From contig CAZGQF010000001.1 of the NCBI GenBank assembly GCA_964527545.1, forward strand, positions 148,019-212,018: 64,000 nt of DNA. The letters run 5' to 3'. Positions 32,823-55,910 of the stretch are shown piece by piece. The DNA is from Candidatus Undinarchaeota archaeon. Lineage in GTDB: Archaea > SpSt-1190 > DYHY01 > CAZGQF01. The notes under the pieces were generated by a model. The model worked only from the letters and a program-made list of their open reading frames with translations. It did not search any database and was not told the DNA's origin. A program made the translations under genes and the position numbers. Numbering within the stretch: the stretch's first letter is position 1; each line of letters opens with the position of its first letter.

Positions 32823-32852
32823 TAATTTAAGGGGATAAGGGGGTGGGATGGC

Positions 32853-36975: not shown

Positions 36976-37026
36976 CGCCGTGGGGGGCGGGAGGCCACTA
37001 AAAGGTTTGCGCAGGGGGAGGCTTAT

Positions 37027-42482: not shown

Positions 42483-43651
42483 TAGCTCCAACAGGGATAG
42501 CGAAGCTGGACGAGCTCCTTGGGGGAGGGCTCTCCGCAGGTGAGCTGATGCTCTTCTGGAGCGGGCCGGGGATCGACTCGTCGCCCTTCCTCTACACCAT
42601 CATAAATGCCGCACTGGAGAGAAAGGAGAAAGTCGTCTACTTCACGCAGAACAAGGGCGAGGCTGCTGTCAGGAGGGAGATAGAGAGGTACGGCTTCTCG
42701 ACGGAAAACCTCCTCTTCATCGACGGCTACTCCGGACTCATCAACCAGCCCTCCAGCGCCAGGTACGTCGTGAAGAGGGCGAAGGACCCGAAAGACATCA
42801 CCAAGACTCTTGAGAGGGCGATGGAGGCAGGCCCTTCGCTCGTCGCCTTCGACTCCCTCTCCAGCCTCGTCGACGTCTGCGGCGAGAAAGCTCTGGAAGA
42901 GGTTGAAAAGTGGAAGAGGCTGCTCGAGGAGAAGGGGGCGGCTGCAGTCTTCCTCTTCACGGAGTGGCCCTACAATGAAAAGCTGCTCGAGATGGTAGGA
43001 GAGACTGCAGACACGATAGTCAGACTCGGTGCAGTCGAGAAGGAGGTCATCCACCAGAGGTTCTTCACGGTTGTCAAGAGGGACGGCAGCTGGGTCGACA
43101 GGGCAGGCGTCCCCTTTGAGATAGCCTCGCCGGGCGGCCTCCGCATAAGATTGCCCAAGATAGTGGTGACAGGGCCGGAGGGGAGCGGCAAGAGCACTTT
43201 CATACGCTCCGCCAGCAACTACTTTGTCGGAGCTGAAAGGGCGGGGACGACAGTGGGGATAGACTACGGAAAGGTCGACTACCACGGTTTCCGCGTCTCC
43301 CTCTTCGGGACGCCCAGCCACAAAAGGTTCGACGCCATACTGCCAGTGGTGGGGGCGGGCGCCATGGGAGCGATAGTCCTTGTCGACGCCACCCGGCCCG
43401 AGACATTACCCCACGCCGACATCTTCATCGAGAAGGCGGGACTGGAGGCGGTTCCCAGGATAGTGGTCTCCAACCACACAGGCCTCCCCGGCGCGCTCAA
43501 GCCTGAAAAGATAAGAAAGAAGATGGGGTTGAAAGGGGACACCCCTCTCATCGCGCTCACTGAAAGAGAGAAGAAGGGCGGCGAGCCGGCAGCCATGGAG
43601 ACCAAGGAGATCCACAAGGTGCTGGACGCCCTCTTCGAACAGGTGGTCTGA
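42479..43651 (+). CDS. fusion protein: KaiC-like domain (degenerate P-loop) plus C-terminal P-loop GTPase-like domain
   Basis: N-terminal GIAKLDELLGGGLSAGELMLFWSGPGIDSSPF has no Lys in the P-loop. C-terminal VVTGPEGSGKSTFI (G1), TTVGIDYG (switch I Thr), LFGTPS (G3-like), then a 116-aa tail. Start overlaps the upstream stop (ATGA). Confidence 0.55.
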   Translation: MIAPTGIAKLDELLGGGLSAGELMLFWSGPGIDSSPFLYTIINAALERKEKVVYFTQNKGEAAVRREIERYGFSTENLLFIDGYSGLINQPSSARYVVKRAKDPKDITKTLERAMEAGPSLVAFDSLSSLVDVCGEKALEEVEKWKRLLEEKGAAAVFLFTEWPYNEKLLEMVGETADTIVRLGAVEKEVIHQRFFTVVKRDGSWVDRAGVPFEIASPGGLRIRLPKIVVTGPEGSGKSTFIRSASNYFVGAERAGTTVGIDYGKVDYHGFRVSLFGTPSHKRFDAILPVVGAGAMGAIVLVDATRPETLPHADIFIEKAGLEAVPRIVVSNHTGLPGALKPEKIRKKMGLKGDTPLIALTEREKKGGEPAAMETKEIHKVLDALFEQVV

Positions 43652-44002
43652 ATGGAAAGGAAAAAGGACAGGATAAAAGGGATGCTCTCCAAGCTTGTCA
43701 GGGAGGAGGGTCTGGACGGGGCAGTGCTAATCTCGCGCGACGGGCTGGTGATAGTGACGGAAGGGAAGGAACTGGACGCCGTCGCCGCCATGACAGCAGT
43801 CGGCGTCGCCTCCCTCGAGACTGCGGCAAGCGAATGGAAGCTCGGACCTGTAGAGAAGGTGGAAGTGGAGACGCCTCAGCACATGATGGTGGTGGCCGAT
43901 GCCGGGCCAGAGGCGGTATTGGCTGTCGCAGTGAAGAAGGGGAGAGACGTCTCTGAGAAACTGAAAGGGGCAGGCAAGGAGATAGAGAAGGTGCTGGGCT
44001 GA
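43652..44002 (+). CDS. Roadblock/LC7 (MglB-like) domain protein
   Basis: 116 aa. GAVLISRDGLVIV...MTAVGVASLE...MVVADAGPEAVLAVAV follows the alpha-beta-alpha Roadblock pattern. Starts 1 nt after the GTPase-fusion stop. Confidence 0.7.
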   Translation: MERKKDRIKGMLSKLVREEGLDGAVLISRDGLVIVTEGKELDAVAAMTAVGVASLETAASEWKLGPVEKVEVETPQHMMVVADAGPEAVLAVAVKKGRDVSEKLKGAGKEIEKVLG

Positions 44003-44467
44003 ATGGCCATCAAGATCGACGTCGAGAAATACTCGCCAATCGCCAAGTTCCTCGGCCTCTCCGCCCTCGTCCTCGTTTTCCTCGCCTTCTTCAAGAGCCC
44101 GCCTCCGCCTGAAGAGTACGACGAAAGGTGCTTCTACGACCACTGCGTCGAGAGGTGCGGGGAGATGGAGTACCGCTTCGGCCGGTTCGACTACGGGGAG
44201 AGGGTGAGGTGCTTCTGCAAGACCAACATAACTGAGATCTCCGTCCAGCTCTACAGCCTGGACGGAAGCGAGTGCCCTCCAGTGACGAGGGACAGGAGGT
44301 GCGACGAGAGCTTCTGCGAAGAGACCTGCATGAAAGACGAGGGCTTCCTTCCCAACCACTCCTCCCTCGTCCTGGAGGACGGCTGGTACGTCTGCATCTG
44401 CCGCGACATGGATGTTGGCTGGTACGAGGAGGCCTACCACGTGGAGGCCTTTAAGTGCTCTTCCTGA
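44003..44467 (+). CDS. membrane-anchored Cys-rich extracytoplasmic protein
   Basis: N-terminal TM (FLGLSALVLVFLAFF), then 14 Cys in 120 aa (CFYDHCVERCGEMEY...CFCK...CDESFCEETC...). Start overlaps the Roadblock stop. Confidence 0.4.
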   Translation: MAIKIDVEKYSPIAKFLGLSALVLVFLAFFKSPPPPEEYDERCFYDHCVERCGEMEYRFGRFDYGERVRCFCKTNITEISVQLYSLDGSECPPVTRDRRCDESFCEETCMKDEGFLPNHSSLVLEDGWYVCICRDMDVGWYEEAYHVEAFKCSS

Positions 44468-44494
44468 AAGAAGTATTAATACTGCAAAGCGCTG

Positions 44495-47400
44495 TTGAAG
44501 GTCATGCGGGCCCAGGCAGCTCTGGAGTACCTCGTGATAGTTGGCATGATGCTCGCAATCCTCATCCCCGCCTTCTGGTACTCGCTCCGCACCTCGCAGC
44601 AGACTCTCGACCTGCGCCAGACAAAAGACGCAGCCCAGAAGGTGGCGAGGACGGCGGACACTGTCTACGCCCTCGGGCCGGGCTCGAGGATGTATGCCCG
44701 GATACGCCTCCCAGCCACTGTTGAGGACGAGCAGGTCGGAAACAACACCGTCCTCTTCCGCGTCGACGTCGGCCAGGGGCCGCAGGACATCTTCGAGCTG
44801 ACCAAGGGGGACGTGATAGGCGTGCTGCCTGAAGAGCGGGGAGAACACCGCGTACTTGTGAAGATGCTTGAGAGCGGCATCGTCCAGATAGGGGAGGCGA
44901 TCTCCTTGTCGCCCGACCCTTTCGAGGCGACCATAGCTCCCGGCGCTTGGAACGACTCCCTCTTCAACCTCTCCTCCAACGTCGACTACACAGTCTTCTC
45001 ACTCTCGCCCTCAATCTCGGGCGAGATAGAGAGCTGGGGGGTGATTGGGGCGGCGGACGCCCTGGTCTCATCGCTTTCCCCATACGGCTGGGACCTCTTC
45101 GACCTCAACATCTCCGTCCCGCCTTCACAGGCGGCCGGCACCTACGACGGCACGCTTCTCGTTTCCTCCAACCAGAGCGAGGCGACCTCCGCGATACAGA
45201 TCACAGTGCCTTCCGTGCTCAACTACCTCTTCATCGACATCTACGGCTATGAGATGGTGGGCGACATCGGCTTCGTGGTCTCCGGCGACCATCTCTCGCA
45301 GGACGAGAGGGAGGTTCTTGACTGGCTTGAGAGCGAGGAGAGCGGCGAAGGCTACCTCTGGGACTACGACATCATCTCAGACTCGCCCCCCTCCTCTCTC
45401 CGCAACCACTCCGCAGTCCCCCAGAGCTGGGAGGCGACCAGCGGCGGGAGCGGCTACTCCGAAGTCGTCTCGAGCGATGACATCTACGCGACCGCCACTG
45501 TCGCCCAGTACGCTACGGAGAACTTGACAGTCCACTTCCCTCCGCTCGGTCTCGAGAAAGACCCTGACAGCGTCAACTTCACGGCTGAGTACAGGATGAG
45601 CGCCACTGCAGGCTCCCCCTCCCAGGGCGAGTCCCAAGTCGACTCAATGGACGACGTATCGGACTGGAGCGAGGAGTACGGCGCGACCAACGGCGACTTC
45701 ACCACCGACTCGGGCACAAAGCAGGAGGGGACTGCCTCCATGGAGATAAGCTATGACTTCCCGGCGCCCGGCCCGTCCTCGAGCGAGGAGCTGACAGACG
45801 GCGGCTCGATCTCAGGGCCCTCCTCCGGCAGGATAACGGGCGGCGACCACACAGACACCCACTCCACGACAGACGGCGACTACTACTACCTCGGCTACGA
45901 GGTCAACGGCAACTGGAGGAGGAGGAACGGCTGGATGGAGCTGGAGTACGACATCTCTAGCCTGGGCATCGACCCGTCAGACCTGACAGACATCACTCTC
46001 GACGCCGACTTCTGCCACTCTGGGGACGAGACGTCGCCGGCCTGCGGACAGGGCGACGCGATGGAGGGCTTCCTCTGGGGCAGCCAGCTTGTCCAGGTCT
46101 ACGACCACGCCAACTCTGAATGGGACTCGCTCGGCTCCCTCTCCGTCAACACTGGAAGCGACGCGGAGCAGAGCGGGAGCTGGTCGGCATCATCGCCGCT
46201 CTCCAACTATGTCAGCGGCAGCGACACCGTCGACGTCAGGTTCGAGGTCGACTTCTACCTCGCCTGGACCTACGACGCCGTGCTCCTCTTGGACTACGTC
46301 CCCCTCTCACTCACATGGTCTGGCGGTTCGGAGACGCTCGACGAGTACGTCATCAAGAAGAGCTTCTCCCAGGAGGACTGGACAGGCTCCCAGAACCTCT
46401 CTGTCTGGGTCTACGGCGACGCCAACGGCGAGGACATCACGCTCAACATCACCGACTCCGGCGGGGGGAGCTATGAGTGGACGCCGCTCGACGTGAACTG
46501 GAGCGGCTGGCAGTGGAAAAAGTTCGACCTTTCCGGGACGAGCGGCGTCGACCTGTCGTCTGTCAACGGCGTCAAAATCAAGCTGGAAGAGACGGCGGCA
46601 GGCGACAACCCGTCCGGCACTCTCTACCTCGACGACCTCCGCAGGTTCTACACCGCGGGGGGCGGAAACTTCTTTTGCGACCTTCTCTGCCATGACGGCT
46701 CCTCCTGGACCGAGGTGGCGCCAGGGCTGGCCCAGACGTCAGACACCACCCAGCTCTGGGACGTGACCGCCTGCCTCTCGACAAAGGAGGAGGCAAACGA
46801 CGCAGACCTCAAGTTCTCCTGCTACAACGAGATCTCTTCCGGCCAGACGTTCTACCTCGACTACTCCCGGCTCGACGCCTCCTATCTCGGCCTGGCGTCA
46901 GGCGACGCTGAGAGCTGGAACACGTCGACCGGCGACTCAGGCTCGTCTGAAATCCAGTCAAGCAACGACGTCTACGCAGATGAGGAGATAACGCCGGAAG
47001 GGACGGAGAAGCTCGAAATCGACTTCCCAGACCTCGGCGTGACTGGCGCTCCCTTCTCTGTCAACACCACAGTGGAATACAGGTACAGCGACGTAGCCGA
47101 GGGAGGGAGGGAAGGCGGAAGCGACGTGGTCGACTATCTCAACCTCTTCCCCTCAGACAACCCAGTCAACGTCCAGCTCAACCAGCCCTTCAACCTGACA
47201 GTCACCCTCTGGGACCAGCAGGGCGATCCCGTGAGCGGGAAGGAGAGCTACTTCTCGGTCAACAGCATCAAGGACGACAACGGGGCCGCTGCCGCCTTCT
47301 CGACACAGCCCGCTCTCGAGTCGGAGCCAGGGAAGTACGCCATCGAGATAACTATGACCTCCGGGAACGACGGAGCGACCTACTACGTCAACGGCGAGTA

Positions 47401-48838
47401 CCTGGAGGGGAGCGTGCCCGACAGGTACCAGATGTGGTGGCACGGGACAGTCAACCTCAACGAGAGCGCCAAGACGGGCGTGGCCTGGGTCTTCCTGCCG
47501 GAGACTGACTTCGTGACGCTTCCCTCGACCGGCGGGACCATCAACCTCAAGCTCTACTGCATCGACCAGACAAGCTCCCCGCTCAACTCCCTCTCGACCA
47601 CAGACTTCAAGATCTCCAATGTCAAGAGCGAGACGGGGAGCGCAGTGGGCGGCTGGAGCCAGGGGACTGTCACTTTCGAAGGCGACGGCATCTACAAAAT
47701 ACCTATCACGTTCTCCTCCCTCCCTGAGGGCGAAAACCTCTTCCTAAGGGGGAACTGGAAAGAGCTGAACAAGGAGATCGACTTCGGCGCCTCTTTCTTC
47801 GTCAACTCGTCAGATCCATACGCCCCCGCGCCAGACAACCCCTACGTGCCAGGCTCTCCGGCGGCCGGCCTTGAGTGTGAGCTGGAGTGCAGGGGAGAGG
47901 GCGGCTGGTCTTCACTCGGCCCCCTCCCCCAGAACGACAGCGACACTCTCGCGACCTTCTCACTCGACTCCTGCGTCTCCACACAGGCCATCGCCAACGA
48001 CATCCACACCCGCTTCAACTGCACCAACCACTTCTCCGACAACGCAACGCTCTACGTCGACTACGCCAACGTCAGCGTCGGCTATGTCGGCGAGGAGAGC
48101 TGGAATGAACTGAACGAGACAGACCTCTGCGGCTACGGGGCGATAATGGTGGGAGAGCACGAGAGCTCGCTCGACGCGGCGCTCCTCGACTTCCTCGACG
48201 ACTGCGGCTGCGTGATGCTTGTGGGAGAGGCGGCCGCCTCCGCCCCTGTCTCTCTCGGATACGCCAACTCGAGCTTCTCAGGGCTCAACTCCACGCTCTA
48301 CGTGGTCGACGACTCAAACTACGTGACGGCCAACTACTCCAACTCCTCGCTCGTCTCCGTCTACTCGCAAAGCGACATGATGTGGGGGTCGGACGCAGAC
48401 GGCGTTCTCGCCACCGCCGAGGGCAACACTCTCGGCGAGGACGGCAGATTGATGTACTACGGCGTCAGGACGCAGCACCTCTCTTCAGACGGAAACAACA
48501 CTCTGACCCGCTTCGTGGACAGGTGCCTCTCCAAGTCGGTTACGCCAGGCACTCTCGAAGAGAAGAGCGATTTCAGGAAAAACGAGGTCATCGTCTACCG
48601 CATCTCCCTCAGAGACCAGGGCCTCTCTCCCGCAGACTCAAGCGACGTCGACTCGTGGGTCTGGATGGCGAACGGGACGCTGGCCTACCAGAGACTCGAT
48701 GCCTCGACGTCCGGGGGCGCCCTCCAGGAGAGCTACACCATTCCCTCCAGCGGGCCGTCCGGGACGTGGACAGTCAACGCGACCGCCGCAGGGCCGTACT
48801 CCTCTGTCCAGAACTCCACGACATTCGAGGTCGCATAG
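44495..48838 (+). CDS. giant (1447 aa) pilin-headed surface protein / putative adhesin, N-glycosylation sequon-rich
   Basis: N-terminus MKVMRA/QAALEYLVIVGMMLAILIPAF is a class III signal peptide. The rest is low in charged and high in S/T/N/D/G residues, with dozens of N-x-S/T sequons. No TM elsewhere. Confidence 0.6.
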   Translation: MKVMRAQAALEYLVIVGMMLAILIPAFWYSLRTSQQTLDLRQTKDAAQKVARTADTVYALGPGSRMYARIRLPATVEDEQVGNNTVLFRVDVGQGPQDIFELTKGDVIGVLPEERGEHRVLVKMLESGIVQIGEAISLSPDPFEATIAPGAWNDSLFNLSSNVDYTVFSLSPSISGEIESWGVIGAADALVSSLSPYGWDLFDLNISVPPSQAAGTYDGTLLVSSNQSEATSAIQITVPSVLNYLFIDIYGYEMVGDIGFVVSGDHLSQDEREVLDWLESEESGEGYLWDYDIISDSPPSSLRNHSAVPQSWEATSGGSGYSEVVSSDDIYATATVAQYATENLTVHFPPLGLEKDPDSVNFTAEYRMSATAGSPSQGESQVDSMDDVSDWSEEYGATNGDFTTDSGTKQEGTASMEISYDFPAPGPSSSEELTDGGSISGPSSGRITGGDHTDTHSTTDGDYYYLGYEVNGNWRRRNGWMELEYDISSLGIDPSDLTDITLDADFCHSGDETSPACGQGDAMEGFLWGSQLVQVYDHANSEWDSLGSLSVNTGSDAEQSGSWSASSPLSNYVSGSDTVDVRFEVDFYLAWTYDAVLLLDYVPLSLTWSGGSETLDEYVIKKSFSQEDWTGSQNLSVWVYGDANGEDITLNITDSGGGSYEWTPLDVNWSGWQWKKFDLSGTSGVDLSSVNGVKIKLEETAAGDNPSGTLYLDDLRRFYTAGGGNFFCDLLCHDGSSWTEVAPGLAQTSDTTQLWDVTACLSTKEEANDADLKFSCYNEISSGQTFYLDYSRLDASYLGLASGDAESWNTSTGDSGSSEIQSSNDVYADEEITPEGTEKLEIDFPDLGVTGAPFSVNTTVEYRYSDVAEGGREGGSDVVDYLNLFPSDNPVNVQLNQPFNLTVTLWDQQGDPVSGKESYFSVNSIKDDNGAAAAFSTQPALESEPGKYAIEITMTSGNDGATYYVNGEYLEGSVPDRYQMWWHGTVNLNESAKTGVAWVFLPETDFVTLPSTGGTINLKLYCIDQTSSPLNSLSTTDFKISNVKSETGSAVGGWSQGTVTFEGDGIYKIPITFSSLPEGENLFLRGNWKELNKEIDFGASFFVNSSDPYAPAPDNPYVPGSPAAGLECELECRGEGGWSSLGPLPQNDSDTLATFSLDSCVSTQAIANDIHTRFNCTNHFSDNATLYVDYANVSVGYVGEESWNELNETDLCGYGAIMVGEHESSLDAALLDFLDDCGCVMLVGEAAASAPVSLGYANSSFSGLNSTLYVVDDSNYVTANYSNSSLVSVYSQSDMMWGSDADGVLATAEGNTLGEDGRLMYYGVRTQHLSSDGNNTLTRFVDRCLSKSVTPGTLEEKSDFRKNEVIVYRISLRDQGLSPADSSDVDSWVWMANGTLAYQRLDASTSGGALQESYTIPSSGPSGTWTVNATAAGPYSSVQNSTTFEVA

Positions 48839-48874
48839 AACATCAGATAAATATCAGCGGAGAGTCTCCCTGGC

Positions 48875-49252
48875 ATGGCAGGACAGAGCTCTCTTGAAAG
48901 CTTGGTCAGCATAGGGTTCATGCTCTTCCTCTTCACCTCCACCCTTGCAGTCGCCTACCAGAAGGAAAGGGAGACATCGCGAGTTGGGGAGTTCCTGGCC
49001 AACCGGACCGACTGCGACGCAATCGCCCTTGAGGTGGCCGCGGTCTTCACGAGCGGGGAAGGAACGAGGACCGTCAGGAAGATCGGCAGGAGAGCGGAGG
49101 TCTACGGCGATGCAGGCCAGATAGTGGTGGGCGACGTCTTCTGCCTGACCATTGCCAACGTCACCAACGGCACCCACAGCAGCTTCACGCTGGAGGAGGG
49201 CGAAGTGGAGATCCTCTCCCTTGGCAGGGAGGTGAGAGTAAGGAATGTCTAG
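48875..49252 (+). CDS. minor pilin-like protein (class III signal peptide MAG/QSSLESLVSIGFMLFLF)
   Basis: 125 aa. Prepilin-like N-terminus with Q+1 and E+5. Confidence 0.5.
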   Translation: MAGQSSLESLVSIGFMLFLFTSTLAVAYQKERETSRVGEFLANRTDCDAIALEVAAVFTSGEGTRTVRKIGRRAEVYGDAGQIVVGDVFCLTIANVTNGTHSSFTLEEGEVEILSLGREVRVRNV

Positions 49253-49718
49253 GGGACAGTCCGTGATGCTCGACTTCCTGCTGGCCGCCTTCGTCTTCAG
49301 CGTCGTCTTCTCAGCAGTGATGCTCTCCCTCCGCAACGTCCAGGAGACCTTCGACGCGGAAGAGAGGAGGTGGAGGATACAGAGGGGTGCCATACAGGCG
49401 GCCGACGTCCTTGTGAAGAGCAGGGGTGTGCCCTTCAACTGGAATGAAAGAGAGACAAGGCTTCCCGGCCTCAAGTCGATGGGGCGTTCCCTGGAGAGCG
49501 GCAAGCTCTCCGCCTTCGAAGGCCTCGACTATGAGGAGACGAAGGAGATGCTCGGGCTGGAAGGCCTGGAGTACAGAGTAGAAGTGAAGGGCAACGAGAC
49601 CTCCATGAGCATGGGAAGGCCGGAGAGCGGCGACCTGCGCGTCGCATCGACAAGGGTAGCCCTCCATAACGGCGAGCCCGTCTTCCTCAAAGTCACAGTC
49701 TGGGAGGGTAAAGGATGA
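49245..49718 (+). CDS. minor pilin-like protein (MSRG/QSVMLDFLLAAFVFSVVF)
   Basis: 157 aa. Overlaps the upstream gene by 8 nt. Prepilin-like N-terminus. Confidence 0.5.
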   Translation: MSRGQSVMLDFLLAAFVFSVVFSAVMLSLRNVQETFDAEERRWRIQRGAIQAADVLVKSRGVPFNWNERETRLPGLKSMGRSLESGKLSAFEGLDYEETKEMLGLEGLEYRVEVKGNETSMSMGRPESGDLRVASTRVALHNGEPVFLKVTVWEGKG

Positions 49719-50158
49719 GCAGGGGCTATGTCTTCAGCTACGACGCGGCGCTGGGGACGCTCCTCGCCATAATCATACTCTGGGCGGTCCTCTGGGAGCT
49801 CCGACTGCCCGGCGTCCTCTCGGAGGTCCAGGTCGTGCGGAGGGCCAACGACGCCCTCGAGGTCCTCATAGAGGGTGGGACCATGGAAAGCATGGAAGAA
49901 GGGACGATTGAGGAGGGGATGGAAAAGCTCCTCCCCCGGAACTACCGCTTTCGCCTCCTCGTCTCTTCCCACTCCCACTCTGGCAGCGGCTTCGAAGTTG
50001 AAGAGAGCGTGAGCGTGGGAGATAATCTGCCGCTGGAGAGGCTCGACCCAGAGACCGCGACGCCGCTCCCCTTCAGAACGGAGAGGACTTTCGTGACCCT
50101 CTCCGGCAACGAAATAGAGTCCTACCACCGGGCGACGATGTGGGTGTGGCTGGAATGA
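49715..50158 (+). CDS. minor pilin-like protein (MSRG/YVFSYDAALGTLLAIIIL)
   Basis: 147 aa. ATGA overlap with the upstream gene. Prepilin-like N-terminus. Confidence 0.45.
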   Translation: MSRGYVFSYDAALGTLLAIIILWAVLWELRLPGVLSEVQVVRRANDALEVLIEGGTMESMEEGTIEEGMEKLLPRNYRFRLLVSSHSHSGSGFEVEESVSVGDNLPLERLDPETATPLPFRTERTFVTLSGNEIESYHRATMWVWLE

Positions 50159-50952
50159 GCAGGGGTATACTCTTCACAGTCAGCCTTACTCTCATCTCGC
50201 TGGTCGTCTTCTCCTTCGCCTCCACGATAATGGGCGGCTACGAAGAGAAGCGGGGAGAGGAGGCCCAGCTTTTGGTCGTGGAGAGGGTGGGCAGGACTTA
50301 CGACAACCTCGAATGGAACGTGAGGGAGATCTTCTCCACCAGCGGTGTGGAGACCGCCTTCTACGGAGACGTGGTCTCTTTCACTGAAGAGCTCCCCAAC
50401 GAAGAGTCCGTTGACTTCGTCCAGAACGTCGAGCGCTACGCGGAGTTTGCGGAGAAAAAGGGCGTCGATCTGGAGACGGACGAGATGACGGAGTATCTCA
50501 CCCTCAGGGTGGAGCCATACGGAGGCCTCTACTCGCACGAAGACTATGGCGGCAATGATCTCTTCTTCAGCTCCCCCCAGACTCCAGAGCTCTACCGATT
50601 CCACATCACCCTCTCAGACGGCGGCCTCCAGCGGATAGACTGGGATCCGTACGAGTCGGGAAGCCTCCCCGTCAACATCTATGTCCAGGGACAGCAGTCC
50701 GGAAACGAAACAAGGCTTATTAACCCCTCTGGGCTCACTGTGGCAAACGTAACGCTTAACGGCAACAGGGGGGTCATAAGCATCCGTTTTGAGGGCGGGA
50801 ACATGACAGCGACCAGCTACGTCAGCAGCACTGTGGAGATTCAGACCAACGTTACAGTGGATGAAGTCTCCAAAATCGTCCTCCCTGGAGCGCTGAAAGT
50901 GTGGGTGCCCGGGACGGGGGCCAGCAGGAACAGCACTGCGAGGGTGGTGTGA
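50140..50952 (+). CDS. minor pilin-like protein (MSRG/ILFTVSLTLISLVVFSF), sequon-rich
   Basis: 270 aa. Overlaps the upstream gene by 19 nt. Prepilin-like N-terminus. Confidence 0.45.
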   Translation: MGVAGMSRGILFTVSLTLISLVVFSFASTIMGGYEEKRGEEAQLLVVERVGRTYDNLEWNVREIFSTSGVETAFYGDVVSFTEELPNEESVDFVQNVERYAEFAEKKGVDLETDEMTEYLTLRVEPYGGLYSHEDYGGNDLFFSSPQTPELYRFHITLSDGGLQRIDWDPYESGSLPVNIYVQGQQSGNETRLINPSGLTVANVTLNGNRGVISIRFEGGNMTATSYVSSTVEIQTNVTVDEVSKIVLPGALKVWVPGTGASRNSTARVV

Positions 50953-52544
50953 TGGCCAACTCCAAGAAGAGGGAGAACCTGGAGAAGCTGAAGGAGGGGA
51001 TCAAGGATGAGCCCTCCGGTAAAAGCGGATTCAGGCTCGAGAAGCTCTTCGACATAGGGACCTATGCAAGCCTCGTGGAGAGGTTCACCTCACACGAGGA
51101 GCCGGACCCGAAACCCAGGAAGCTGAAGCTGAAAGAGACGGTAGAGAACTTCTTCGACAAGAACGCAAAACCCACCATAGAGGCGGTCGAGTCAGGGAGG
51201 TTCGACAAGGAGGAGCTTGAGGAGCTTCTAGATCACGAGAGAGAAAACAAAGAAAGGAAGACCGTTTTGGGGGTGATAGAGTCGAAGCTGGGGGAGATGG
51301 AGACCGTCGAGGACTTCTTCGACAAGAACGCTAAGCCCACCATAGAGGCGGTCGAGTCAGGGAGGTTCGACAAGGAGGAGCTAGAAGAGCTTCTAGAGCA
51401 CGAAAAAGAAGAGAAAGAGAGAAAGACAGTCGTCTCGGCGATAGAGTCGAAGCTGGAGGAGATGGAGACCGTCGAGGACTTCTTCGACAAGAATGCGGAG
51501 CCCACCATAGAGGCGGTCGAGTCAGGGAGGTTCGACAGAAAAGAGCTGAAAGAGCTGCTTGAACACGAGAGGGAGGGGAAGGAGAGAAAGACAGTCGTCT
51601 CGGCGATAGAGTCGAAGCTGGGGGAGATGGAGACCGTCGAGGACTTCTTCGACAAGAACGCTAAGCAGATCATAGAGGCCGTGGAGGGGGGCAGGTTCAG
51701 CGACGAGGAGCTCGAAGAATTGCTGAGGCACGAGAGAGAGGGGAAGGAGAGAAAGACCGTTTTGGGGGTGATAGAGGCGGTCATCGGCGAGCTGCCCCCT
51801 GAAGCTGAAGAGAGAATTGGCAGGATACGCTACCAGGTCGAAGTGGAGAGGGGGAGGAGAGAAGGCAAGACGGAAGTCGAAGTCGTTGACATCGAGGAGA
51901 GAGAAGAGTGGCGCGGGGGCATAGGCGGCCACAAGGCAGAGGTCGCAGAGGAAGGGAAAGAGAACTTCGTCGCGCGGATCTTCGAGGAAAGAAAAGAGAG
52001 AAAGGAAGGTCTCCTCTCCAAGCTGGTCAGAAAGGTGAAGAGTCTCTTCGGCCTCCCCAAGGAAGAAAAGGAAGAGCTCGAGGAGGTGGAAGGGGGGATC
52101 ATCAGGCCGGGCGCGGAGGTGGTGGTCAAGCTCGAGGAGGTTGAGGGCTGGGAGGAGAGCGGCAGGAAGAGTGAAGGCGTGGAGGAGCAAGGAGAGAGGG
52201 CTGAGGTAGGAGAGTCGTCAAAACAGGAGGCAGAATGTGCTGATGAACAGGCGAACAGGAGAAAGGTGGAGGAGTGGGACGTCAGCGACATCTCCCTCTC
52301 TGAAGCGAGCGAGAAGCTGGTCACTGGGATCGACAAGCTTTTCTTCATAGTCAAGAAAAAGGAAGGGGTGGGGCTCGAGGCGGCGGCCGGAATGCTGGGC
52401 GTTACGCGCGGCAAAGTAGACGAATGGGCAAAGATACTGGAAGACGAGGGGCTCATCACAATTCACTATCCGGCGGTGGGCGAGCCCAAGCTGGTCCCAA
52501 AGAACGAGACAAGGGGTGGGAGCCACGAAATCGAAGGAGATTGA
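50952..52544 (+). CDS. cytoplasmic repeat protein (4.x copies of a 55-aa K/E-rich repeat) with C-terminal winged-helix-like domain
   Basis: ATG at 50952 overlaps the upstream TGA. Repeats ETVEDFFDKNAKPTIEAVESGRFDKEELEELLEHEREGKERKTVVSAIESKLGEM. C-terminus VTGIDKLFFIVKKKEGVGLEAAAGMLGVTRGKVDEWAKILEDEGLITIHYP. No TM. Confidence 0.5.
   Translation: MANSKKRENLEKLKEGIKDEPSGKSGFRLEKLFDIGTYASLVERFTSHEEPDPKPRKLKLKETVENFFDKNAKPTIEAVESGRFDKEELEELLDHERENKERKTVLGVIESKLGEMETVEDFFDKNAKPTIEAVESGRFDKEELEELLEHEKEEKERKTVVSAIESKLEEMETVEDFFDKNAEPTIEAVESGRFDRKELKELLEHEREGKERKTVVSAIESKLGEMETVEDFFDKNAKQIIEAVEGGRFSDEELEELLRHEREGKERKTVLGVIEAVIGELPPEAEERIGRIRYQVEVERGRREGKTEVEVVDIEEREEWRGGIGGHKAEVAEEGKENFVARIFEERKERKEGLLSKLVRKVKSLFGLPKEEKEELEEVEGGIIRPGAEVVVKLEEVEGWEESGRKSEGVEEQGERAEVGESSKQEAECADEQANRRKVEEWDVSDISLSEASEKLVTGIDKLFFIVKKKEGVGLEAAAGMLGVTRGKVDEWAKILEDEGLITIHYPAVGEPKLVPKNETRGGSHEIEGD
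51136..51795. repeat. 165-bp tandem direct repeat, 4 full copies plus a partial (51136, 51301, 51466, 51631)
   Basis: agaccgtcgaggacttcttcgacaagaa recurs exactly every 165 bp. Copies are about 85-95% identical, in-frame and coding. Confidence 0.85.
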
Positions 52545-54051
52545 CCGCTACGAGCTCGAGGTCGACAACGTCAAGGCAGAGATAAGAATCGTGGCCGGGG
52601 AAGACCTCGTCACACTCTACAAAGTGACAGTCAAGAAGCCGGACGTTGCCACGCGCGCGCTGCTCAACGAAGTCCGCTCCGAGCTGGTCTCTGAGGTGAG
52701 CTTCGGGGGGAGGGAGATACTCAACCCGGAGGCGATAGAGGAGCTCAAGAAGAAGTTCAAGCAGAAGGCTGAGGAGCTGCTTTCAGAGCACCTTCCCGAC
52801 ATAAAGGAGATCGACAGGGACTTCCTGATAGGCCACCTCCTCCATGAGATGCTCGGGCTCGGGAAGCTGGAGATCATACTGTCCGACCCCGAGCTTGAGG
52901 ACCTCGGCGTCAACTGTGCGGAGGAGCCCATCTGGCTCTACCACAAGAAGTACGGATGGCTGAAGACTGATGTCTACTTGGAGAGCGAGGACGAGATAGA
53001 GAATTTGATGAACATAATCGCCCGCAGGGTGGGGAGGTCGATAACCATCCGGGACCCCCTCCTGGATGCCCACCTCCTGAAAGGCGACCGTGTAAACGCA
53101 ACCCTCTACCCCATCTCCACCAAGGGGAACACCATAACCATCAGGAAGTTCTCGGAGAGGCCCTGGACCATCACAGACTTCCTCCAGAACGGCACGACCA
53201 GCAAGGAGGCCGCGGCCCTCGTCTGGCTGGCCATGCAGTACGAGCTGAACATCCTCATCTCCGGCGGCACCGCCTCCGGCAAGACCAGTTTCCTCAACGT
53301 CTGCATGCCCTTCATACAGCCCAACCACCGCATCGTCTCCATAGAGGACACCCGCGAAATCAAGCTCCCTGATTTCCTCTACTGGACCCCTTTTACCGTG
53401 CGCGAGCCAAACCCTGAGGGAAAGGGCGGAGTAACCATGCTCGAACTCATGGTCAACGCGCTCCGCACCAGGCCGGACAGGATAGTGGTGGGAGAGATAA
53501 GGCGCTCCAGGCAGGCAGAGGTCCTCTTCGAGGCGATGCACACAGGCCACAGCGTCTACTCCACGCTGCACGCCGACACCGCCGCCCAGACGGTGCGCCG
53601 CCTCATAAACCCGCCCATCGAGATACCTGAGACGATGCTGGACTCCGTCCACCTAAACGTGGTCATGTTCAGGGACAGGAGGAGGGGCATCCGCAGGACG
53701 CTGGAGGTTGCCGAGCTGGTCCCCACCGGCGAGATGGGGACGGGCTTCAAGATTAACGACATCTTCAAGTGGAAGCCGCGCGGAGACCGCATAGTCTCCC
53801 ACTCAGACAGCATCAGACTGCTGGAGGAGATAAATCTCCACACCGCAATGACGGAGAAGGAGATAGAAGAGGACATCGAGGAGAAGGAGAGGATTCTCTC
53901 CTGGCTCTCCAGGAACAACATAAAAAACGTCAACGCGGTGGGCAGGACGGTGGCCGAGTACTACAAGGACCACGACATGACAGTCGCCCAGATAGAGAGG
54001 AACGTCTCGCCCGAGAAGCTGCTTGGGGATGAGGTAGAGCTCCATGCCTGA
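52516..54051 (+). CDS. type IV pilus/archaellum assembly ATPase (FlaI/TadA/GspE family)
   Basis: GTG start. Walker A GGTASGKTS, Walker B DRIVVGEIR, His-box TLHAD. N-terminal domain of about 200 aa. Overlaps the downstream membrane gene by 8 nt. Confidence 0.85.
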   Translation: MGATKSKEIDRYELEVDNVKAEIRIVAGEDLVTLYKVTVKKPDVATRALLNEVRSELVSEVSFGGREILNPEAIEELKKKFKQKAEELLSEHLPDIKEIDRDFLIGHLLHEMLGLGKLEIILSDPELEDLGVNCAEEPIWLYHKKYGWLKTDVYLESEDEIENLMNIIARRVGRSITIRDPLLDAHLLKGDRVNATLYPISTKGNTITIRKFSERPWTITDFLQNGTTSKEAAALVWLAMQYELNILISGGTASGKTSFLNVCMPFIQPNHRIVSIEDTREIKLPDFLYWTPFTVREPNPEGKGGVTMLELMVNALRTRPDRIVVGEIRRSRQAEVLFEAMHTGHSVYSTLHADTAAQTVRRLINPPIEIPETMLDSVHLNVVMFRDRRRGIRRTLEVAELVPTGEMGTGFKINDIFKWKPRGDRIVSHSDSIRLLEEINLHTAMTEKEIEEDIEEKERILSWLSRNNIKNVNAVGRTVAEYYKDHDMTVAQIERNVSPEKLLGDEVELHA

Positions 54052-54934
54052 GAGGAAATTCCTGCCAGGCGTCCCCCTTCCGCTGCCTCTCGCCCTGCAA
54101 CTCTCCAAGCCGCTCCTCGGCCTCGCCGAGTCATTGGTAGTCTTCCTCCCCTATTTGAAGCTCAACCTCCAGCAGGCGGAGATAGAGCTCGACCCGCGGG
54201 AGTTCCTGGCAGTGGGGGTGTTCGCCTCTCTTCTCTACTTCCTCGCCTCCGGCTTTATCATCTTCACCTTCAGCTACGTGATGACAGGGGAGGTAATCCT
54301 GTGGCTGCCCGTCGTGGTGGCCCTGCTGTCGGGCGGCGGCGCACTCTTCTACCACCTGGCCGCGCCGCACCTCATCGTCCAGAGGAAGGTCAAGGAGATA
54401 GAGAAGAACCTCCTCTTCAGCATGAGGAGCCTGATGGTCCAGGTATCGAGCGGCGTCCCGCTCTACACCGCCCTCACCACCATAGCCCGCAGCGGATACG
54501 GCAAGGTAAGCGACGAGTTCGCCAAGGCTGTCGACAAGATGGCGACGGGGACACCGCAGGACGTGGCGCTCGGCAAGATAACCCTTGGTAACCCCTCCGT
54601 CTTCTTCCGTAGGGCGATCTGGCAGATAACCAACGGCATGCGCTCCGGCAGCAACATCTCCGAGGTGCTCGACTCCGTGACGGAGAACCTGGCCAGGGAG
54701 CAGTCCATACAGATAAAGAGGTACGGCTCGCAGCTGAACCCCCTCGCCCTGGTCTACATGATAGTAAGCGTCATCGTCCCCGCCCTGGGGATGACCTTCG
54801 TCATAGTGCTCAGCTCCTTCCCTTCGCTGCCCATCCACGAGTACATGCTCTGGGCCTTCCTGGGGCTCCTCGCGGTGGCGCAGTTCATGCTCCTGGGCCT
54901 GATAAAGTCGAGGAGGCCAAACCTGCTGGGGTGA
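54044..54934 (+). CDS. TadB/TadC/FlaJ-like polytopic membrane protein (T2SS-F domain), first half
   Basis: 296 aa. TM-flanked cytoplasmic T2SSF-like domain (LYTALTTIARSGYGKVSDEFAKAVDKMATG...). Confidence 0.75.
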   Translation: MPERKFLPGVPLPLPLALQLSKPLLGLAESLVVFLPYLKLNLQQAEIELDPREFLAVGVFASLLYFLASGFIIFTFSYVMTGEVILWLPVVVALLSGGGALFYHLAAPHLIVQRKVKEIEKNLLFSMRSLMVQVSSGVPLYTALTTIARSGYGKVSDEFAKAVDKMATGTPQDVALGKITLGNPSVFFRRAIWQITNGMRSGSNISEVLDSVTENLAREQSIQIKRYGSQLNPLALVYMIVSVIVPALGMTFVIVLSSFPSLPIHEYMLWAFLGLLAVAQFMLLGLIKSRRPNLLG

Positions 54935-54938
54935 AAGA

Positions 54939-55910
54939 TTGAACTACATAGCAATAGCGAGATGGCTGCCCCCGAAGCTCGGGGAATGGATGAGGAAGTC
55001 TCTTGTCTACGCAGACATCGATGTCAACCCGGAAAAGCTCCTCGGCTTCCTTTCGGTCTTCGGCCTGTCCCTCTCCCTCGCGCTGGCAGCCGACCTCTAT
55101 CTCTTCTTCGGCTTCAACCCCCTGCTAGGCTTCTGCGGCAGTCTCGCCGGATTCTCCCTCCTCTTCTACCTCTTCCTCTTCTTCATGATAGAGAGCAGGT
55201 CCCGCTTCATAGAGAACGTCCTGCCCGACGCCCTCCAGCTGATGAGCAGCAACATAAGGGTGGGCATGACCACCGACAGGGCCTTCCTGCTCAGCGCCCG
55301 CCCCGAGTTCGGACCGCTGGAGAAGGAGATAAGGCGTGTGGGGAAGAAGATCTTTTCGGGAGGCGAGATCGACAAGGAGCTGCTGGCAATGGCAAAGAGG
55401 ATAAGGTCGAACGTCTTCGACAGGACCATCTCCATAATAGTCGAAGGGATCAGGTCGGGCGGCGAGCTGGACAGGATCCTCGTGCAGACCGCCCACGACT
55501 TGAGGCGGCAGGAGAGTGTGAGGAAGGAGATAGAGGCCACCATACTGATGTACTCGGTCCTTGTCTTCATGGGCGTCGGCTTCGCCGCGCCCTTCCTCTT
55601 CGGCGTCTCCAGCTACCTCGCCGAGGTGCTGGGGGAGAGGATGGCCAGCTTCGGCTTCGTGAGGGGGCTTACTCAGACGCTCAACCTGGAAGCGGGCGGC
55701 GCCTCCTTCTCCCCTCAGTCGATAGTGGTCTTCTCTGTCTCATCGCTGACAATGTCAAGCGTCTTCGGGAGCCTCCTGATCGGCCTCATCCAGGAAGGCA
55801 ATGAGAAGGTGGGCGCAAAGTACATACCCGTCTTCCTCACCCTGAGCATCACTCTCTTCTTTTTGACGAGGAAAGTGATGGTAAGCTTCTTCGGACAGCT
55901 CCTCACATGA
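54939..55910 (+). CDS. TadC/FlaJ-like polytopic membrane protein (T2SS-F domain), second half
   Basis: 323 aa. TTG start in the ORF track (alternative ATG at 54990). Second T2SSF-like domain (LQLMSSNIRVGMTTDRAFLLSA...). Different frame from the upstream half. Confidence 0.75.
   Translation: MNYIAIARWLPPKLGEWMRKSLVYADIDVNPEKLLGFLSVFGLSLSLALAADLYLFFGFNPLLGFCGSLAGFSLLFYLFLFFMIESRSRFIENVLPDALQLMSSNIRVGMTTDRAFLLSARPEFGPLEKEIRRVGKKIFSGGEIDKELLAMAKRIRSNVFDRTISIIVEGIRSGGELDRILVQTAHDLRRQESVRKEIEATILMYSVLVFMGVGFAAPFLFGVSSYLAEVLGERMASFGFVRGLTQTLNLEAGGASFSPQSIVVFSVSSLTMSSVFGSLLIGLIQEGNEKVGAKYIPVFLTLSITLFFLTRKVMVSFFGQLLT

What the first reader, a model, noticed from the sequence alone, without database searches (positions are those of the whole stretch)
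50952..52544. 165-bp tandem-repeat protein upstream of the pilus ATPase shares its repeat motif with the KaiC-like protein tail
A strict 165-bp coding tandem repeat (4 copies plus a partial) encodes ...FDKEELEELLEHEKEEKERKTVVSAIESKLEEM... The C-terminal tail of the KaiC-like protein ends at 42370-42482 with FTEEELERMLKKEKKGKGRKTVVSAIESRLEEGK, the same motif (about 20 of 30 residues identical). A shared short linear motif between a cytoplasmic repeat protein, which has a winged-helix-like C-terminus, and a KaiC-like scaffold suggests a common docking element, for example for the ATPase or the Roadblock protein. A repeat copy-number difference could tune the system. Tandem repeats with high copy identity point to recent expansion and possible strain-level length variation.
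Basis: seen in the sequence. Interest (0 to 1): 0.65.

Follow-up and report, generated by a model that had tools for sequence, protein, structure and literature searches.

The report
Small folded domain shared across pilus operon
A 55-residue three-helix domain of unknown function (apparently Pfam DUF8129) occurs four times in tandem in the winged-helix protein encoded just before an archaeal pilus ATPase and once at the tail of a KaiC-like protein in the same operon; it is probably a tethering module, but it is not pilus-specific, because it also sits on ribosomal, RNA-polymerase and phage proteins elsewhere.

Summary
Window 51135-51794 holds four complete 165-bp units with 74-89% DNA identity and no partial fifth copy. 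They lie in a 530-aa acidic cytoplasmic protein. The KaiC-like protein (41505-42482) ends with one whole unit, not just a 30-residue motif: 32/55 identical, no gaps, z=21.5 against shuffles, HMM E=2e-17.

The unit is a folded domain, not a linear motif. AlphaFold2 gives pLDDT 92 and three helices. It appears to be Pfam DUF8129 (PF26450), for which I found no structure or paper.

The repeat protein's C-terminus is a winged helix (LrpA E=7e-6). Its gene overlaps the pilus ATPase gene. Both carrier genes lie in one run of 13 co-directional genes.

Related archaeal pilus loci carry 0, 2, 3 or 4 copies on the same pre-ATPase protein. One locus carries a copy on a different KaiC paralogue, at the other terminus. 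That genome also has the domain on RpoA'', uS3 and an ORF at the eL32 position. Phages encode it in head modules.

My best reading, which is inferred, is a portable docking module that links the KaiC/GTPase/Roadblock regulators to the pilus motor scaffold. Nucleic-acid binding and a neutral spreading module remain live rivals.

The parts
41505..42482 (+). KaiC-like protein (325 aa, P0003), first gene of the operon. It has a degenerate Walker A (APPKAETH instead of GxxGxGK[ST]).
   Evidence: Pfam KaiC PF06745 E=1.3e-20 and DUF7504 E=6.7e-15. It is 51% identical over 230 aa to a tailless 235-aa orthologue in L009. The Walker A sequence was read directly from the translation.
42195..42311 (+). 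E/K-rich linker between the KaiC core and the terminal domain. It contains a 14-bp x4 tandem repeat at 42197-42252.
   Evidence: No homology to the unit: score 32 against unit 2.
42312..42476 (+). Single copy of the 55-aa domain at the C-terminus of the KaiC-like protein.
   Evidence: 32/55 identical to unit 2, z=21.5. HMM built from the four units only gives E=2e-17. Synonymous sites are saturated.
42479..43651 (+). Second KaiC-like domain, also with a degenerate Walker A, fused to a small GTPase.
   Evidence: PF06745 E=1.3e-15. TIGR00231 small_GTP E=2.2e-8. It overlaps the preceding gene by 4 nt.
43652..44002 (+). Roadblock/LC7 protein.
   Evidence: PF03259 E=6.6e-12.
44003..50952 (+). Six genes for proteins with an N-terminal hydrophobic helix, pilin-like or membrane-anchored. 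One is a 1447-aa acidic surface protein.
   Evidence: Kyte-Doolittle maxima of 2.0-2.5 at residues 9-12. No family hits. The gene order resembles that of the related loci L009, L002 and L004; apart from the partial match of the 270-aa protein to L001, none of these six genes matched a related locus by sequence.
50952..52544 (+). Repeat protein (530 aa, P0001). Layout: N-terminal conserved motif, 4 x 55-aa domain, conserved helical region, acidic linker, C-terminal winged helix.
   Evidence: Its start overlaps the upstream stop by 1 nt, and its last 29 nt overlap the ATPase ORF.
51021..51092 (+). N-terminal motif GFRLEKLFDIGTYASLVERFTS, conserved in the orthologue P0002.
   Evidence: Alignment A3.
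51135..51299 (+). Domain unit 1.
51300..51464 (+). Domain unit 2. This is the sequence that was modelled.
   Evidence: AlphaFold2 with a 97-sequence alignment: pLDDT 92, pTM 0.72, helices at 3-6, 11-20, 25-37 and 42-54.
51465..51629 (+). Domain unit 3.
51630..51794 (+). Domain unit 4, the most divergent. It shares GRFSDEEL with the last unit of the orthologue P0002.
51834..52046 (+). Conserved helical middle region (IEEREEW..GIG.HKAE...FVA.I.EE..KEGLLS).
   Evidence: Alignment A3. Helices in the low-confidence full-length model.
52317..52496 (+). Winged helix-turn-helix domain.
   Evidence: Profile A4 against PDB sequences: LrpA 7.4e-6, AsnC-family 9.1e-5, also ArsR, TFE and IclR. Members hit the MarR, HTH_24 and TrmB Pfam models below their cut-offs.
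52516..54051 (+). FlaI/TadA-type pilus assembly ATPase.
   Evidence: PF00437 E=6.9e-37. NF058587 E=9e-90, below its cut-off. About 50% identical to the ATPases of L002-L005 and L009.
54044..55910 (+). Two TadC/T2SSF-type platform proteins.
   Evidence: PF00482 E=4.4e-19 and 3.2e-15.

Best explanation
Shown. The 165-bp repeat encodes four complete copies of an autonomously folding ~55-residue three-helix domain. The domain appears to be Pfam DUF8129 (PF26450), whose function is unknown. The carrier is a soluble, very acidic 530-aa protein with a C-terminal Lrp/AsnC/MarR-type winged helix. Its gene is the conserved 'pre-ATPase' gene of a DPANN-type archaeal type-IV-pilus-like operon, and its 3' end overlaps the ATPase ORF. 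A fifth copy, diverged long ago but kept by selection on the protein, hangs on a ~40-residue E/K-rich linker at the C-terminus of a Walker-A-degenerate KaiC-like protein. That protein is encoded by the first gene of the same co-directional gene array.

Inferred. The domain is a portable docking or tethering module. In this operon it brings the KaiC-like/GTPase/Roadblock regulatory proteins and the winged-helix scaffold together at the ATPase-TadC motor. It could do this by self-association or by binding one shared partner. The four tandem copies would give multivalency. This is the logic by which the KaiC-like ArlH binds the ArlX or ArlCDE scaffold of the archaellum motor. Copy number (0-4 in related loci) and carrier (two different KaiC paralogues, opposite termini) are evolutionarily plastic.
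For: Homology of the tail and the units. Folded domain: pLDDT 92. The conserved positions are a hydrophobic core plus E35 and R41 (invariant in 97 sequences) and K39, K42, T43 and V44.

Selection rather than recent copying: the identical peptide RKTVVSAIES is written with different codons in the two genes. Only 12 of 32 identical residues share a codon, and the longest exact DNA match is 9 nt.

Operon: 13 co-directional genes with gaps of -29 to +36 nt. The pre-ATPase gene overlaps the ATPase gene here by 29 nt, and by 8 nt in both L005 and L009. This fits co-translated subunits.

Recurrence on the pre-ATPase protein. L009 encodes a 415-aa protein with an N-terminal motif, a coiled coil, 2 copies and a C-terminal wHTH. 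L005/P0019 has an N-terminal wHTH, a coiled coil and 4 copies, and lies next to a prepilin peptidase. L001/P0002 has 3 copies.

Independent fusion to KaiC. In L009 the orthologue of the window's KaiC-like protein has no tail (51% identity). A different KaiC paralogue with an intact Walker A, P0057, carries the domain at its N-terminus.

Co-absence. The Woesearchaeota-type loci L002 and L004 have a wHTH-plus-coiled-coil protein and KaiC-like genes, and neither carries the domain.

Charge. The window's units have net charge -6 to -10, and the family ranges from -11 to +12. That fits a small conserved protein-binding epitope better than electrostatic nucleic-acid binding.

Precedent. ArlH binds ArlI, and also ArlX or ArlCDE (PMC8978795). 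KaiC-like, Roadblock and coiled-coil proteins are known accessories of archaeal pilus loci (PMC4858521).
Against: No interaction was tested; the mechanism rests on architecture and gene context only.

The domain is not pilus-specific. The genome that holds L009 also has it on RpoA'' (2 copies), uS3 (2 copies) and an ORF at the eL32 position. Elsewhere it occurs on eL31, PspC-domain proteins, a zinc-ribbon protein, an actinobacterial group whose C-terminus weakly resembles the Rv1109c family (sub-threshold NCBIfam hits only), and phage head-module proteins.

In that genome the KaiC copy is no closer to the wHTH-protein copies (57% and 54%) than to the copy at the eL32 position (60%). There is therefore no sign of specific co-evolution between the two pilus-locus carriers.

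Most conserved polar residues could be structural: helix N-caps and an E35-R41 salt bridge. I inferred this from the sequence pattern and did not check it on coordinates.

The co-presence and co-absence pattern rests on only four loci, and it is confounded by lineages in which the domain is generally abundant.
Confidence: 0.42

Rival explanations
1. The domain binds nucleic acid or another phosphate-bearing ligand. On this reading the winged-helix protein is a transcription or RNA regulator of the pilus operon, the four copies add avidity, and the KaiC tail targets that protein to the same nucleic acid.
For: Many partner domains handle nucleic acid: uS3, eL31, an ORF at the eL32 position, RpoA'', wHTH, a zinc ribbon, and a phage N-domain that PHROGs labels Arc-like. 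There is a near-invariant basic K-x-R-K-T element at the loop and N-terminus of helix 3. Copies in K-rich DPANN genomes carry +7 to +12 net charge. In phages the gene lies between the major head protein and the head-tail adaptor, the same gene position where, from my memory, small HeH/Rho_N-type proteins are found. Two of 97 members weakly hit the Pfam SAP model (E~0.013).
Against: The window's units are strongly acidic, -6 to -10 each, and the whole protein is -48. Foldseek finds no SAP, LEM or Rho fold, nor any PDB hit with E<1. Overlap of the gene with the ATPase gene in three lineages looks more like a complex subunit than a transcription factor. The partners KaiC, PspC and membrane-protein tails are not nucleic-acid proteins.
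Confidence: 0.25
2. There is no shared partner. The domain is a stable, highly soluble helical spacer that has spread by duplication and shuffling within certain archaeal lineages. Its presence on two proteins of this operon is a by-product of that spread, and the array length is nearly neutral.
For: At least five unrelated carriers exist in one genome, GCA_964457955.1. Copy number on orthologous proteins varies from 0 to 4, and the Woesearchaeota-type loci have none. The domain sits at the N-terminus, the C-terminus or internally. The conserved residues can mostly be explained structurally. Within-genome similarity is general rather than partner-specific.
Against: The tail copy has kept 32/55 identity to the array units although synonymous sites are saturated. 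E35 and R41 are invariant, and K39 and K42 nearly so, across archaea, bacteria and phages, which is more than a spacer needs. The pairing with the pre-ATPase wHTH protein recurs in three divergent lineages, and the pairing with KaiC paralogues recurs twice at opposite termini.
Confidence: 0.2
3. The resemblance is chance similarity between K/E-rich low-complexity segments, or the array is an assembly artefact.
For: Both segments are rich in E and K. The protein is 44% charged.
Against: z=21.5 against composition-preserving shuffles, and the tail scores only 29 against the protein's own K/E linker. A non-circular HMM gives E=2e-17. There are 221 family members in 1.84 billion representatives. 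The domain fold is predicted confidently. Units differ by 11-26% at the DNA level, with mostly third-position changes. An orthologue from an independent data set has 3 units in the same gene context.
Confidence: 0.02

Closest known systems
Pfam DUF8129 (PF26450), a domain of unknown function
   Same: The precomputed Pfam annotation of the window's protein P0001 is PF26450. The same family, named DUF8129, is listed as a faint hit for P0004, whose only region in common with P0001 is the 55-aa unit. PHROGs families phrog_22690 (E=1.3e-13) and phrog_1983, both of unknown function, cover the same unit.
   Different: The model is not in the local Pfam copy, so I could not see its coordinates or score. 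No paper mentions PF26450 or DUF8129. Nothing is recorded about a link to pilus loci, to KaiC, or to tandem arrays.
ArlH (KaiC-like) with the ArlX or ArlCDE cytoplasmic scaffold of the archaellum motor
   Same: In both cases a KaiC-family protein and a soluble or helical scaffold protein are encoded beside a FlaI-type ATPase and a TadC/ArlJ-type platform protein. ArlH binds both the ATPase and the scaffold (PMC8978795). This is the model for how the system here might work.
   Different: The two KaiC-like proteins here lack the Walker A lysine, whereas ArlH binds ATP. The scaffold here has a winged helix and DUF8129 copies and no membrane anchor, whereas ArlX has one. No sequence similarity to ArlX or ArlCDE was tested or seen. 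The operon encodes pilin-like proteins, and I did not look for archaellum-specific genes such as ArlF or ArlG.
Accessory cytoplasmic proteins of archaeal type IV pilus loci described by Makarova, Koonin and Albers 2016: KaiC-family ATPases, Roadblock/LC7 arCOG02603, and the coiled-coil protein arCOG07564 of subclade 4F
   Same: That census lists KaiC-like, Roadblock and a coiled-coil intracellular protein as recurrent pilus-locus components, and it notes that the subclade 4F ATPase also occurs in nanoarchaea (PMC4858521). The wHTH-plus-coiled-coil pre-ATPase proteins of L002-L005 fit that description.
   Different: I could not test membership of arCOG07564, because no arCOG profiles are available here. 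The paper text contains neither 'wHTH' nor 'winged helix' (0 occurrences), and I did not find a shared repeat domain or a link between the KaiC-like and the coiled-coil protein described in the passages I read.
SAP / HeH / Rho_N helix-extended-loop-helix nucleic-acid-binding motifs
   Same: The size and the pattern of helix 2, loop and helix 3 look alike (ELxxLLxxE...KxRKTVxxAIxxxL against ELRxEL..RGL...GxKxxLIxRL). Both are appended to the termini of many proteins and occur in small phage proteins.
   Different: hhalign probability is 0.8%. Only 2 of 97 members touch the Pfam SAP model, at E~0.01. Foldseek finds no such fold in the PDB. The domain has a third helix plus an N-terminal turn, and it is often strongly acidic.
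MglA/MglB (small Ras-like GTPase plus Roadblock GAP), which sets the polarity of type IV pilus ATPases in Myxococcus (from my own knowledge)
   Same: The operon encodes a small GTPase domain followed by a Roadblock/LC7 protein, next to pilus genes.
   Different: Here the GTPase is fused to a degenerate KaiC-like domain. No functional data exist. The relation to the repeat domain is only co-operonic.

Membership tests
Pfam DUF8129 (PF26450) | Significant match of the 55-aa unit to the family HMM | tested here: inconclusive
   The precomputed annotation lists PF26450 for P0001 and 'PF26450:DUF8129 (faint)' for P0004. The local Pfam-A copy lacks the model. The assignment to the unit is therefore inferred from the only region the two proteins share.
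The 55-aa domain family as defined here (profiles A1/A2) | Full-length match with the core motif NA..I.AI...(x)..EL..LL..E...K.RKTV..AI...L | tested here: met
   All four units and the KaiC tail score 72-81 bits against the 97-sequence profile. 221 proteins have E<=1e-3 among 1.84 billion representatives.
   AlphaFold2 gives pLDDT 92, pTM 0.72 and three helices with a conserved hydrophobic core.
KaiC family (PF06745) | RecA-like KaiC domain match | tested here: met
   E=1.3e-20 for ORF 41505-42482 and E=1.3e-15 for ORF 42479-43651.
KaiC family (PF06745) | Intact Walker A GxxGxGK[ST], needed for ATP binding and autophosphorylation | tested here: not met
   The translation reads LIAPPKAETH in the first protein and SGPGIDSS in the second. 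By contrast P0057 has GGPGSGKTS. The first protein also matches DUF7504 (6.7e-15) and DUF7090.
Winged helix-turn-helix (Lrp/AsnC/MarR-like) | Profile similarity to solved wHTH domains over helix 2, the recognition helix and the wing | tested here: met
   Profile A4 hits LrpA 1i1g at 7.4e-6 and AsnC 8q90 at 9.1e-5, and also ArsR, TFE and IclR. No single Pfam HTH family reaches its gathering score.
Winged helix-turn-helix (Lrp/AsnC/MarR-like) | DNA binding | not testable with these tools
   This needs EMSA or ChIP. Winged helices also mediate protein-protein contacts.
Archaeal type IV pilus-like (Tad/FlaI-type) locus | FlaI/TadA-type ATPase, TadC/T2SSF platform protein(s), and proteins with pilin-like N-terminal hydrophobic helices | tested here: met
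   PF00437 at 6.9e-37 and PF00482 twice. N-terminal hydrophobic helices in six upstream ORFs and in 55912-56355(-). No prepilin peptidase was seen in the part of the window I examined.
SAP / HeH / Rho_N | Profile-level or fold-level similarity to helix-extended-loop-helix motifs | tested here: not met
   hhalign probability 0.8% (reference sequences recalled from memory). Foldseek against the PDB gives no hit with E<1.
arCOG07564 coiled-coil pilus-locus protein | Match to the arCOG profile | not testable with these tools
   No arCOG library is available. I know the family only from the description in PMC4858521.

The most novel reading that the evidence does not exclude
DUF8129 is a dedicated recognition module of the archaeal KaiC-like signalling network. 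It would be either a homotypic 'velcro' or a KaiC-binding or KaiC-phosphorylated tag, with the near-invariant K-x-R-K-T as the recognition or acceptor site. In small DPANN-type cells it would wire the pilus motor scaffold, and in some genomes also ribosomal proteins and RNA polymerase, to KaiC-like hubs. The number of tandem copies would set the valency of that coupling.
Probability: 0.1. Interest if true: 0.75.

Novelty: new variant of a known kind. Interest (0 to 1): 0.45.

Why it matters
KaiC-like proteins are the most common predicted regulators next to archaeal pilus and archaellum genes. How they connect physically to the machines is known only for ArlH. This operon and its relatives offer a concrete, testable candidate for that connection: a small folded domain that recurs on the protein encoded just before the pilus ATPase and, independently, on two different KaiC paralogues.

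The work also puts a Pfam domain of unknown function in a defined context. It gives that domain a confident fold model, a conserved surface element (E35, K39, R41, K42, T43) to mutate, and a striking distribution: pilus scaffold, KaiC, ribosomal proteins, RNA polymerase and phage head modules. If the domain proves to be a general tether, it would explain part of the 'dark matter' extensions on core proteins in DPANN-type archaea. If it proves to be a neutral spacer, the finding is ordinary.

Tried and rejected
1. Chance similarity from K/E-rich composition: rejected by the shuffle test and a non-circular HMM.

2. Recent gene conversion between the tail and the array: rejected. Synonymous sites are saturated and the longest exact DNA match is 9 nt.

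3. Other copies in the window: none in the six-frame translation.

5. SAP/Rho_N relationship: hhalign probability 0.8%.

6. Specific co-evolution of the KaiC-borne and scaffold-borne copies: not supported once the ribosomal copies from the same genome were added. The shared 4-residue loop deletion also occurs in the uS3 copy.

7. Word-index homologue searches with the unit profiles returned almost nothing.

8. Metagenome scans for orthologues, and a degenerate DNA pattern that matches units 1-3 of the window, found nothing.

9. tblastn searches of the GenBank phage collection with array or domain queries found nothing useful. A viral contigs protein scan also found nothing. A DNA-pattern scan of viral contigs did give four phage loci.

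10. The full-length AlphaFold2 model with a two-sequence alignment is too poor (pLDDT 50, pTM 0.21) to say how the units pack.

11. The literature on Rv1109c gave no information about the domain.


Full report
THE OBSERVATION

Tandem Repeats Finder reports a 165-bp period, 3.8 copies, 85% matches and no indels at 51135-51757. Read in the frame of ORF 50952-52544, there are four complete 55-residue units at 51135-51794 and no partial fifth copy. Pairwise identity is 74-89% for DNA and 71-87% for protein. Most differences fall on third codon positions. The array is therefore coding and under purifying selection, but it is not 'strict'.

- It shares 32 of 55 residues with unit 2 without a gap.
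- The local alignment score is 154, against 31.4 +/- 5.7 (maximum 58) for 5000 shuffles of the tail, z=21.5.
- The same tail scores 29 against the protein's own K/E-rich linker.
- An HMM made from the four units alone finds the tail at E=2e-17. The next best segment in the six-frame translation of the window has E=0.37.

The window holds no further copy.

WHAT THE UNIT IS

A profile of the units, searched against 1.84 billion representative proteins, finds 221 proteins at E<=1e-3.

With a 97-sequence alignment of these, AlphaFold2 models unit 2 at pLDDT 92 and pTM 0.72. The model has a short N-terminal turn and three helices at residues 11-20, 25-37 and 42-54. The conserved columns are a hydrophobic core plus E35 and R41, which are invariant in all 97 sequences, and L28, K39, K42, T43 and V44, which are nearly so. 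The element is thus a small folded domain, not a short linear motif.

The local Pfam, NCBIfam and PDB-sequence libraries have no significant model for it. Foldseek finds nothing in the PDB with E<1. In the viral structure set it matches only uncharacterised phage proteins, at TM 0.7-0.8. PHROGs families phrog_22690 (E=1.3e-13) and phrog_1983, both of unknown function, cover it.

The protein collection's precomputed annotation gives PF26450 for the window's protein. The same accession is named DUF8129 on P0004, a zinc-ribbon protein that shares only the units with it. The domain therefore appears to be Pfam DUF8129. I found no paper mentioning it.

THE CARRIER PROTEINS AND THE OPERON

The repeat protein is 530 aa long. 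It has no hydrophobic segment, 44% charged residues and a net charge of -48. Comparison with its one close homologue, P0002 (434 aa, three units, same flanking genes), defines its layout:
- an N-terminal motif, GFRLEKLFDIGTY.SLVE.FTS;
- the four units;
- a conserved helical region;
- an acidic linker;
- a C-terminal segment.

A profile of that C-terminal segment from seven orthologues hits the winged helix of LrpA (7.4e-6) and an AsnC regulator (9.1e-5).

The gene starts on the stop codon of the preceding gene. Its last 29 nt overlap the ORF of a FlaI/TadA-type ATPase, which is followed by two TadC-type genes.

Upstream lie six genes for proteins with pilin-like N-terminal helices. Before them lie a Roadblock/LC7 gene, a KaiC-like-plus-small-GTPase fusion, and, as the first gene, the tail-bearing KaiC-like protein.

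In total, 13 co-directional genes span 41505 to 55910 with gaps of -29 to +36 nt. Both KaiC-like domains lack the Walker A GK[ST], as read from the translation. The first also matches DUF7504.

RELATED LOCI

The pre-ATPase winged-helix protein is a conserved component of this locus type. The ATPases are all about 50% identical.

| Locus | Source | Pre-ATPase protein | Domain copies on it | KaiC-like genes in the locus |
|---|---|---|---|---|
| window | this sequence, GC 59% | N-motif, units, helical region, linker, C-terminal wHTH | 4 | one with a C-terminal copy; one fused to a GTPase |
| L001 | P0002 | same layout as the window | 3 | contig too short to tell |
| L009 | GCA_964457955.1, GC 33% | 415 aa: N-motif, coiled coil, units, K-rich linker, C-terminal wHTH; overlaps the ATPase gene by 8 nt | 2 | tailless 235-aa orthologue; P0057 with an N-terminal copy |
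| L005 | P0019, acidic proteome | N-terminal wHTH, coiled coil, units separated by acidic linkers; overlaps the ATPase gene by 8 nt; next to a prepilin peptidase | 4 | none on the 12-kb contig |
| L002, L003, L004 | two Woesearchaeota records (L002, L003) and a closely similar locus labelled uncultured Methanosarcinales (L004) | N-terminal wHTH plus a long coiled coil | 0 | present in L002 and L004, without the domain |

Sources for the table.

In L009 the orthologue of the window's tail-bearing KaiC-like protein (51% identity over 230 aa) has no tail. A different KaiC paralogue with an intact Walker A, P0057, carries one copy at its N-terminus. The domain has therefore been joined independently to two different KaiC proteins, at opposite ends, in loci whose pre-ATPase protein also carries it.

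LIMITS ON THE PILUS-SPECIFIC READING

The genome that contains L009 also has the domain on several core proteins:
- RpoA'' (two copies);
- uS3 (two copies);
- an ORF at the eL32 position of the ribosomal operon.

Other sources have it on eL31, on PspC-domain proteins, on the tail of a membrane protein, and on an actinobacterial group whose C-terminus weakly resembles the Rv1109c family.

In phage contigs, a ~106-aa protein with this domain at its C-terminus is encoded between the major head protein and the head-tail adaptor.

When the ribosomal copies are included, the KaiC copy in L009 is no closer to the scaffold copies (57% and 54%) than to the copy at the eL32 position (60%). The 4-residue loop deletion it shares with one scaffold copy is also present in a uS3 copy. 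Within-genome similarity therefore reflects spread of the domain inside the lineage, not a specific co-evolving pair.

In the window, the tail is closest to units 2 and 3 (58% and 53%), against at most 49% to copies from other genomes. I could not test whether other carriers exist in that genome.

AGE AND SELECTION

Between the tail and the units, only 11-13 of the 25-32 identical residues use the same codon, and the longest shared DNA string is 9 nt. The identical decapeptide RKTVVSAIES is written with different codons in the two genes. This points to old divergence with selection on the protein sequence, not recent gene conversion.

Among the units, 26-39 of 39-48 identical residues share the codon. 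Units 1-3 group together rather than with the positionally equivalent units of P0002. Unit 4 shares GRFSDEEL with P0002's last unit. Units 1-3 were therefore duplicated or homogenised within this lineage, but not very recently.

MECHANISM

Shown:
- homology of the tail and the units;
- a confidently predicted fold;
- the gene context;
- recurrence of the architecture;
- plasticity of copy number and carrier.

Inferred: the domain is a portable tether. In this operon it would bring the KaiC-like/GTPase/Roadblock proteins and the winged-helix scaffold together at the ATPase-TadC motor. It could work by self-association or through one shared partner, with four copies giving multivalency.

The closest working analogy is the KaiC-like ArlH, which binds both the motor ATPase and the ArlX or ArlCDE scaffold (PMC8978795). 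KaiC-like, Roadblock and coiled-coil proteins are already listed as pilus-locus accessories (PMC4858521).

Three observations favour a protein-level role:
- the net charge of the domain varies from -11 to +12, and the window's units are acidic;
- the pre-ATPase gene overlaps the ATPase gene in three lineages;
- fusion to KaiC occurred twice.

The many nucleic-acid-handling carriers and the basic K-x-R-K-T element keep a nucleic-acid or phosphate-ligand role alive. The wide, plastic distribution keeps a near-neutral spacer alive. I put these at about 0.42, 0.25 and 0.20.

NOVELTY AND VERDICT

The domain family exists in Pfam as a DUF. The locus type and its KaiC-like, Roadblock and coiled-coil accessories have been described. 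I found no description, in the literature and libraries I could search, of the following:
- a shared folded domain linking the KaiC-like protein and the pre-ATPase winged-helix protein;
- its recurrence in several lineages, with independent fusions;
- its tandem expansion;
- its proliferation onto core information-processing proteins in one DPANN-type genome.

I rate this a new variant of a known kind, of moderate interest. It gives a precise, testable handle on how KaiC-like regulators might dock onto archaeal pilus machines, but no mechanism has been demonstrated.

Noticed in passing
window 31006-37002: CysRS (31009-32427, - strand, TIGR00435 9e-162), tRNA-Cys(GCA) (32660-32731), SepCysS (34287-35462, 1.9e-177) and SepRS (35458-37002, - strand, TIGR00470 8e-153) lie within 6 kb. 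The direct and the indirect routes to Cys-tRNA are therefore encoded side by side with the tRNA.
   Followed up: partly
window 42197-42252: A 14-bp tandem repeat (GGAGGTGGAGAAGA, 4 copies, 81% matches) lies inside the E/K-rich linker of the KaiC-like gene, just upstream of the domain copy. It could make the linker length variable.
   Followed up: no
window 41505-44002: Both KaiC-like domains lack the Walker A GK[ST] (APPKAETH and SGPGIDSS). The second is fused to a small GTPase and followed by a Roadblock/LC7 gene. This gives an MglA/MglB-like pair joined to pseudo-KaiC domains at the head of a pilus operon.
   Followed up: partly
window 44495-48838: A 1447-aa protein with a pilin-like N-terminus (QAALEYLVIVGMM) and a net charge of -150 has no family match. 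It is presumably a pilus-associated surface adhesin.
   Followed up: no
window 39923-40819: A 298-aa secreted protein is very rich in Cys, Asp, Glu and Gly (repeated CxxxxC patterns) and has no family match. It is encoded directly upstream of the operon.
   Followed up: no
L009, L012, L017 (all from GCA_964457955.1, GC 32-33%): One small-genome archaeon carries the domain on RpoA'' (2 copies), uS3 (2 copies), an ORF at the eL32 position (1 copy; part of that ORF is masked with N), a KaiC paralogue (1 copy) and the pre-ATPase winged-helix protein (2 copies). Two loop-length variants are mixed among the carriers.
   Followed up: partly
L015 2432-2752 (also L013, L014, L016; IMG/VR contigs): Phage proteins of ~106 aa combine an N-domain (phrog_5279, also labelled Arc-like repressor) with a C-terminal copy of the domain. 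In L015 the gene lies between the major head protein and the head-tail adaptor Ad1, so the 'repressor' label looks doubtful and a role in the virion or its assembly seems more likely.
   Followed up: partly
L001 1500-1622: The only close orthologue, P0002, loses similarity to the winged helix part-way through (…VTKKKSRRVGQNSRRSEADRDALSCSW). This looks like a frameshift or an assembly error in that 1.9-kb contig.
   Followed up: no
window 23784-23990: tRNA-Lys(UUU) and tRNA-Asp(GUC) lie adjacent on the - strand. The Rfam and ARAGORN spans differ (89 nt, and 76 against 103 nt), which suggests introns or extensions.
   Followed up: no
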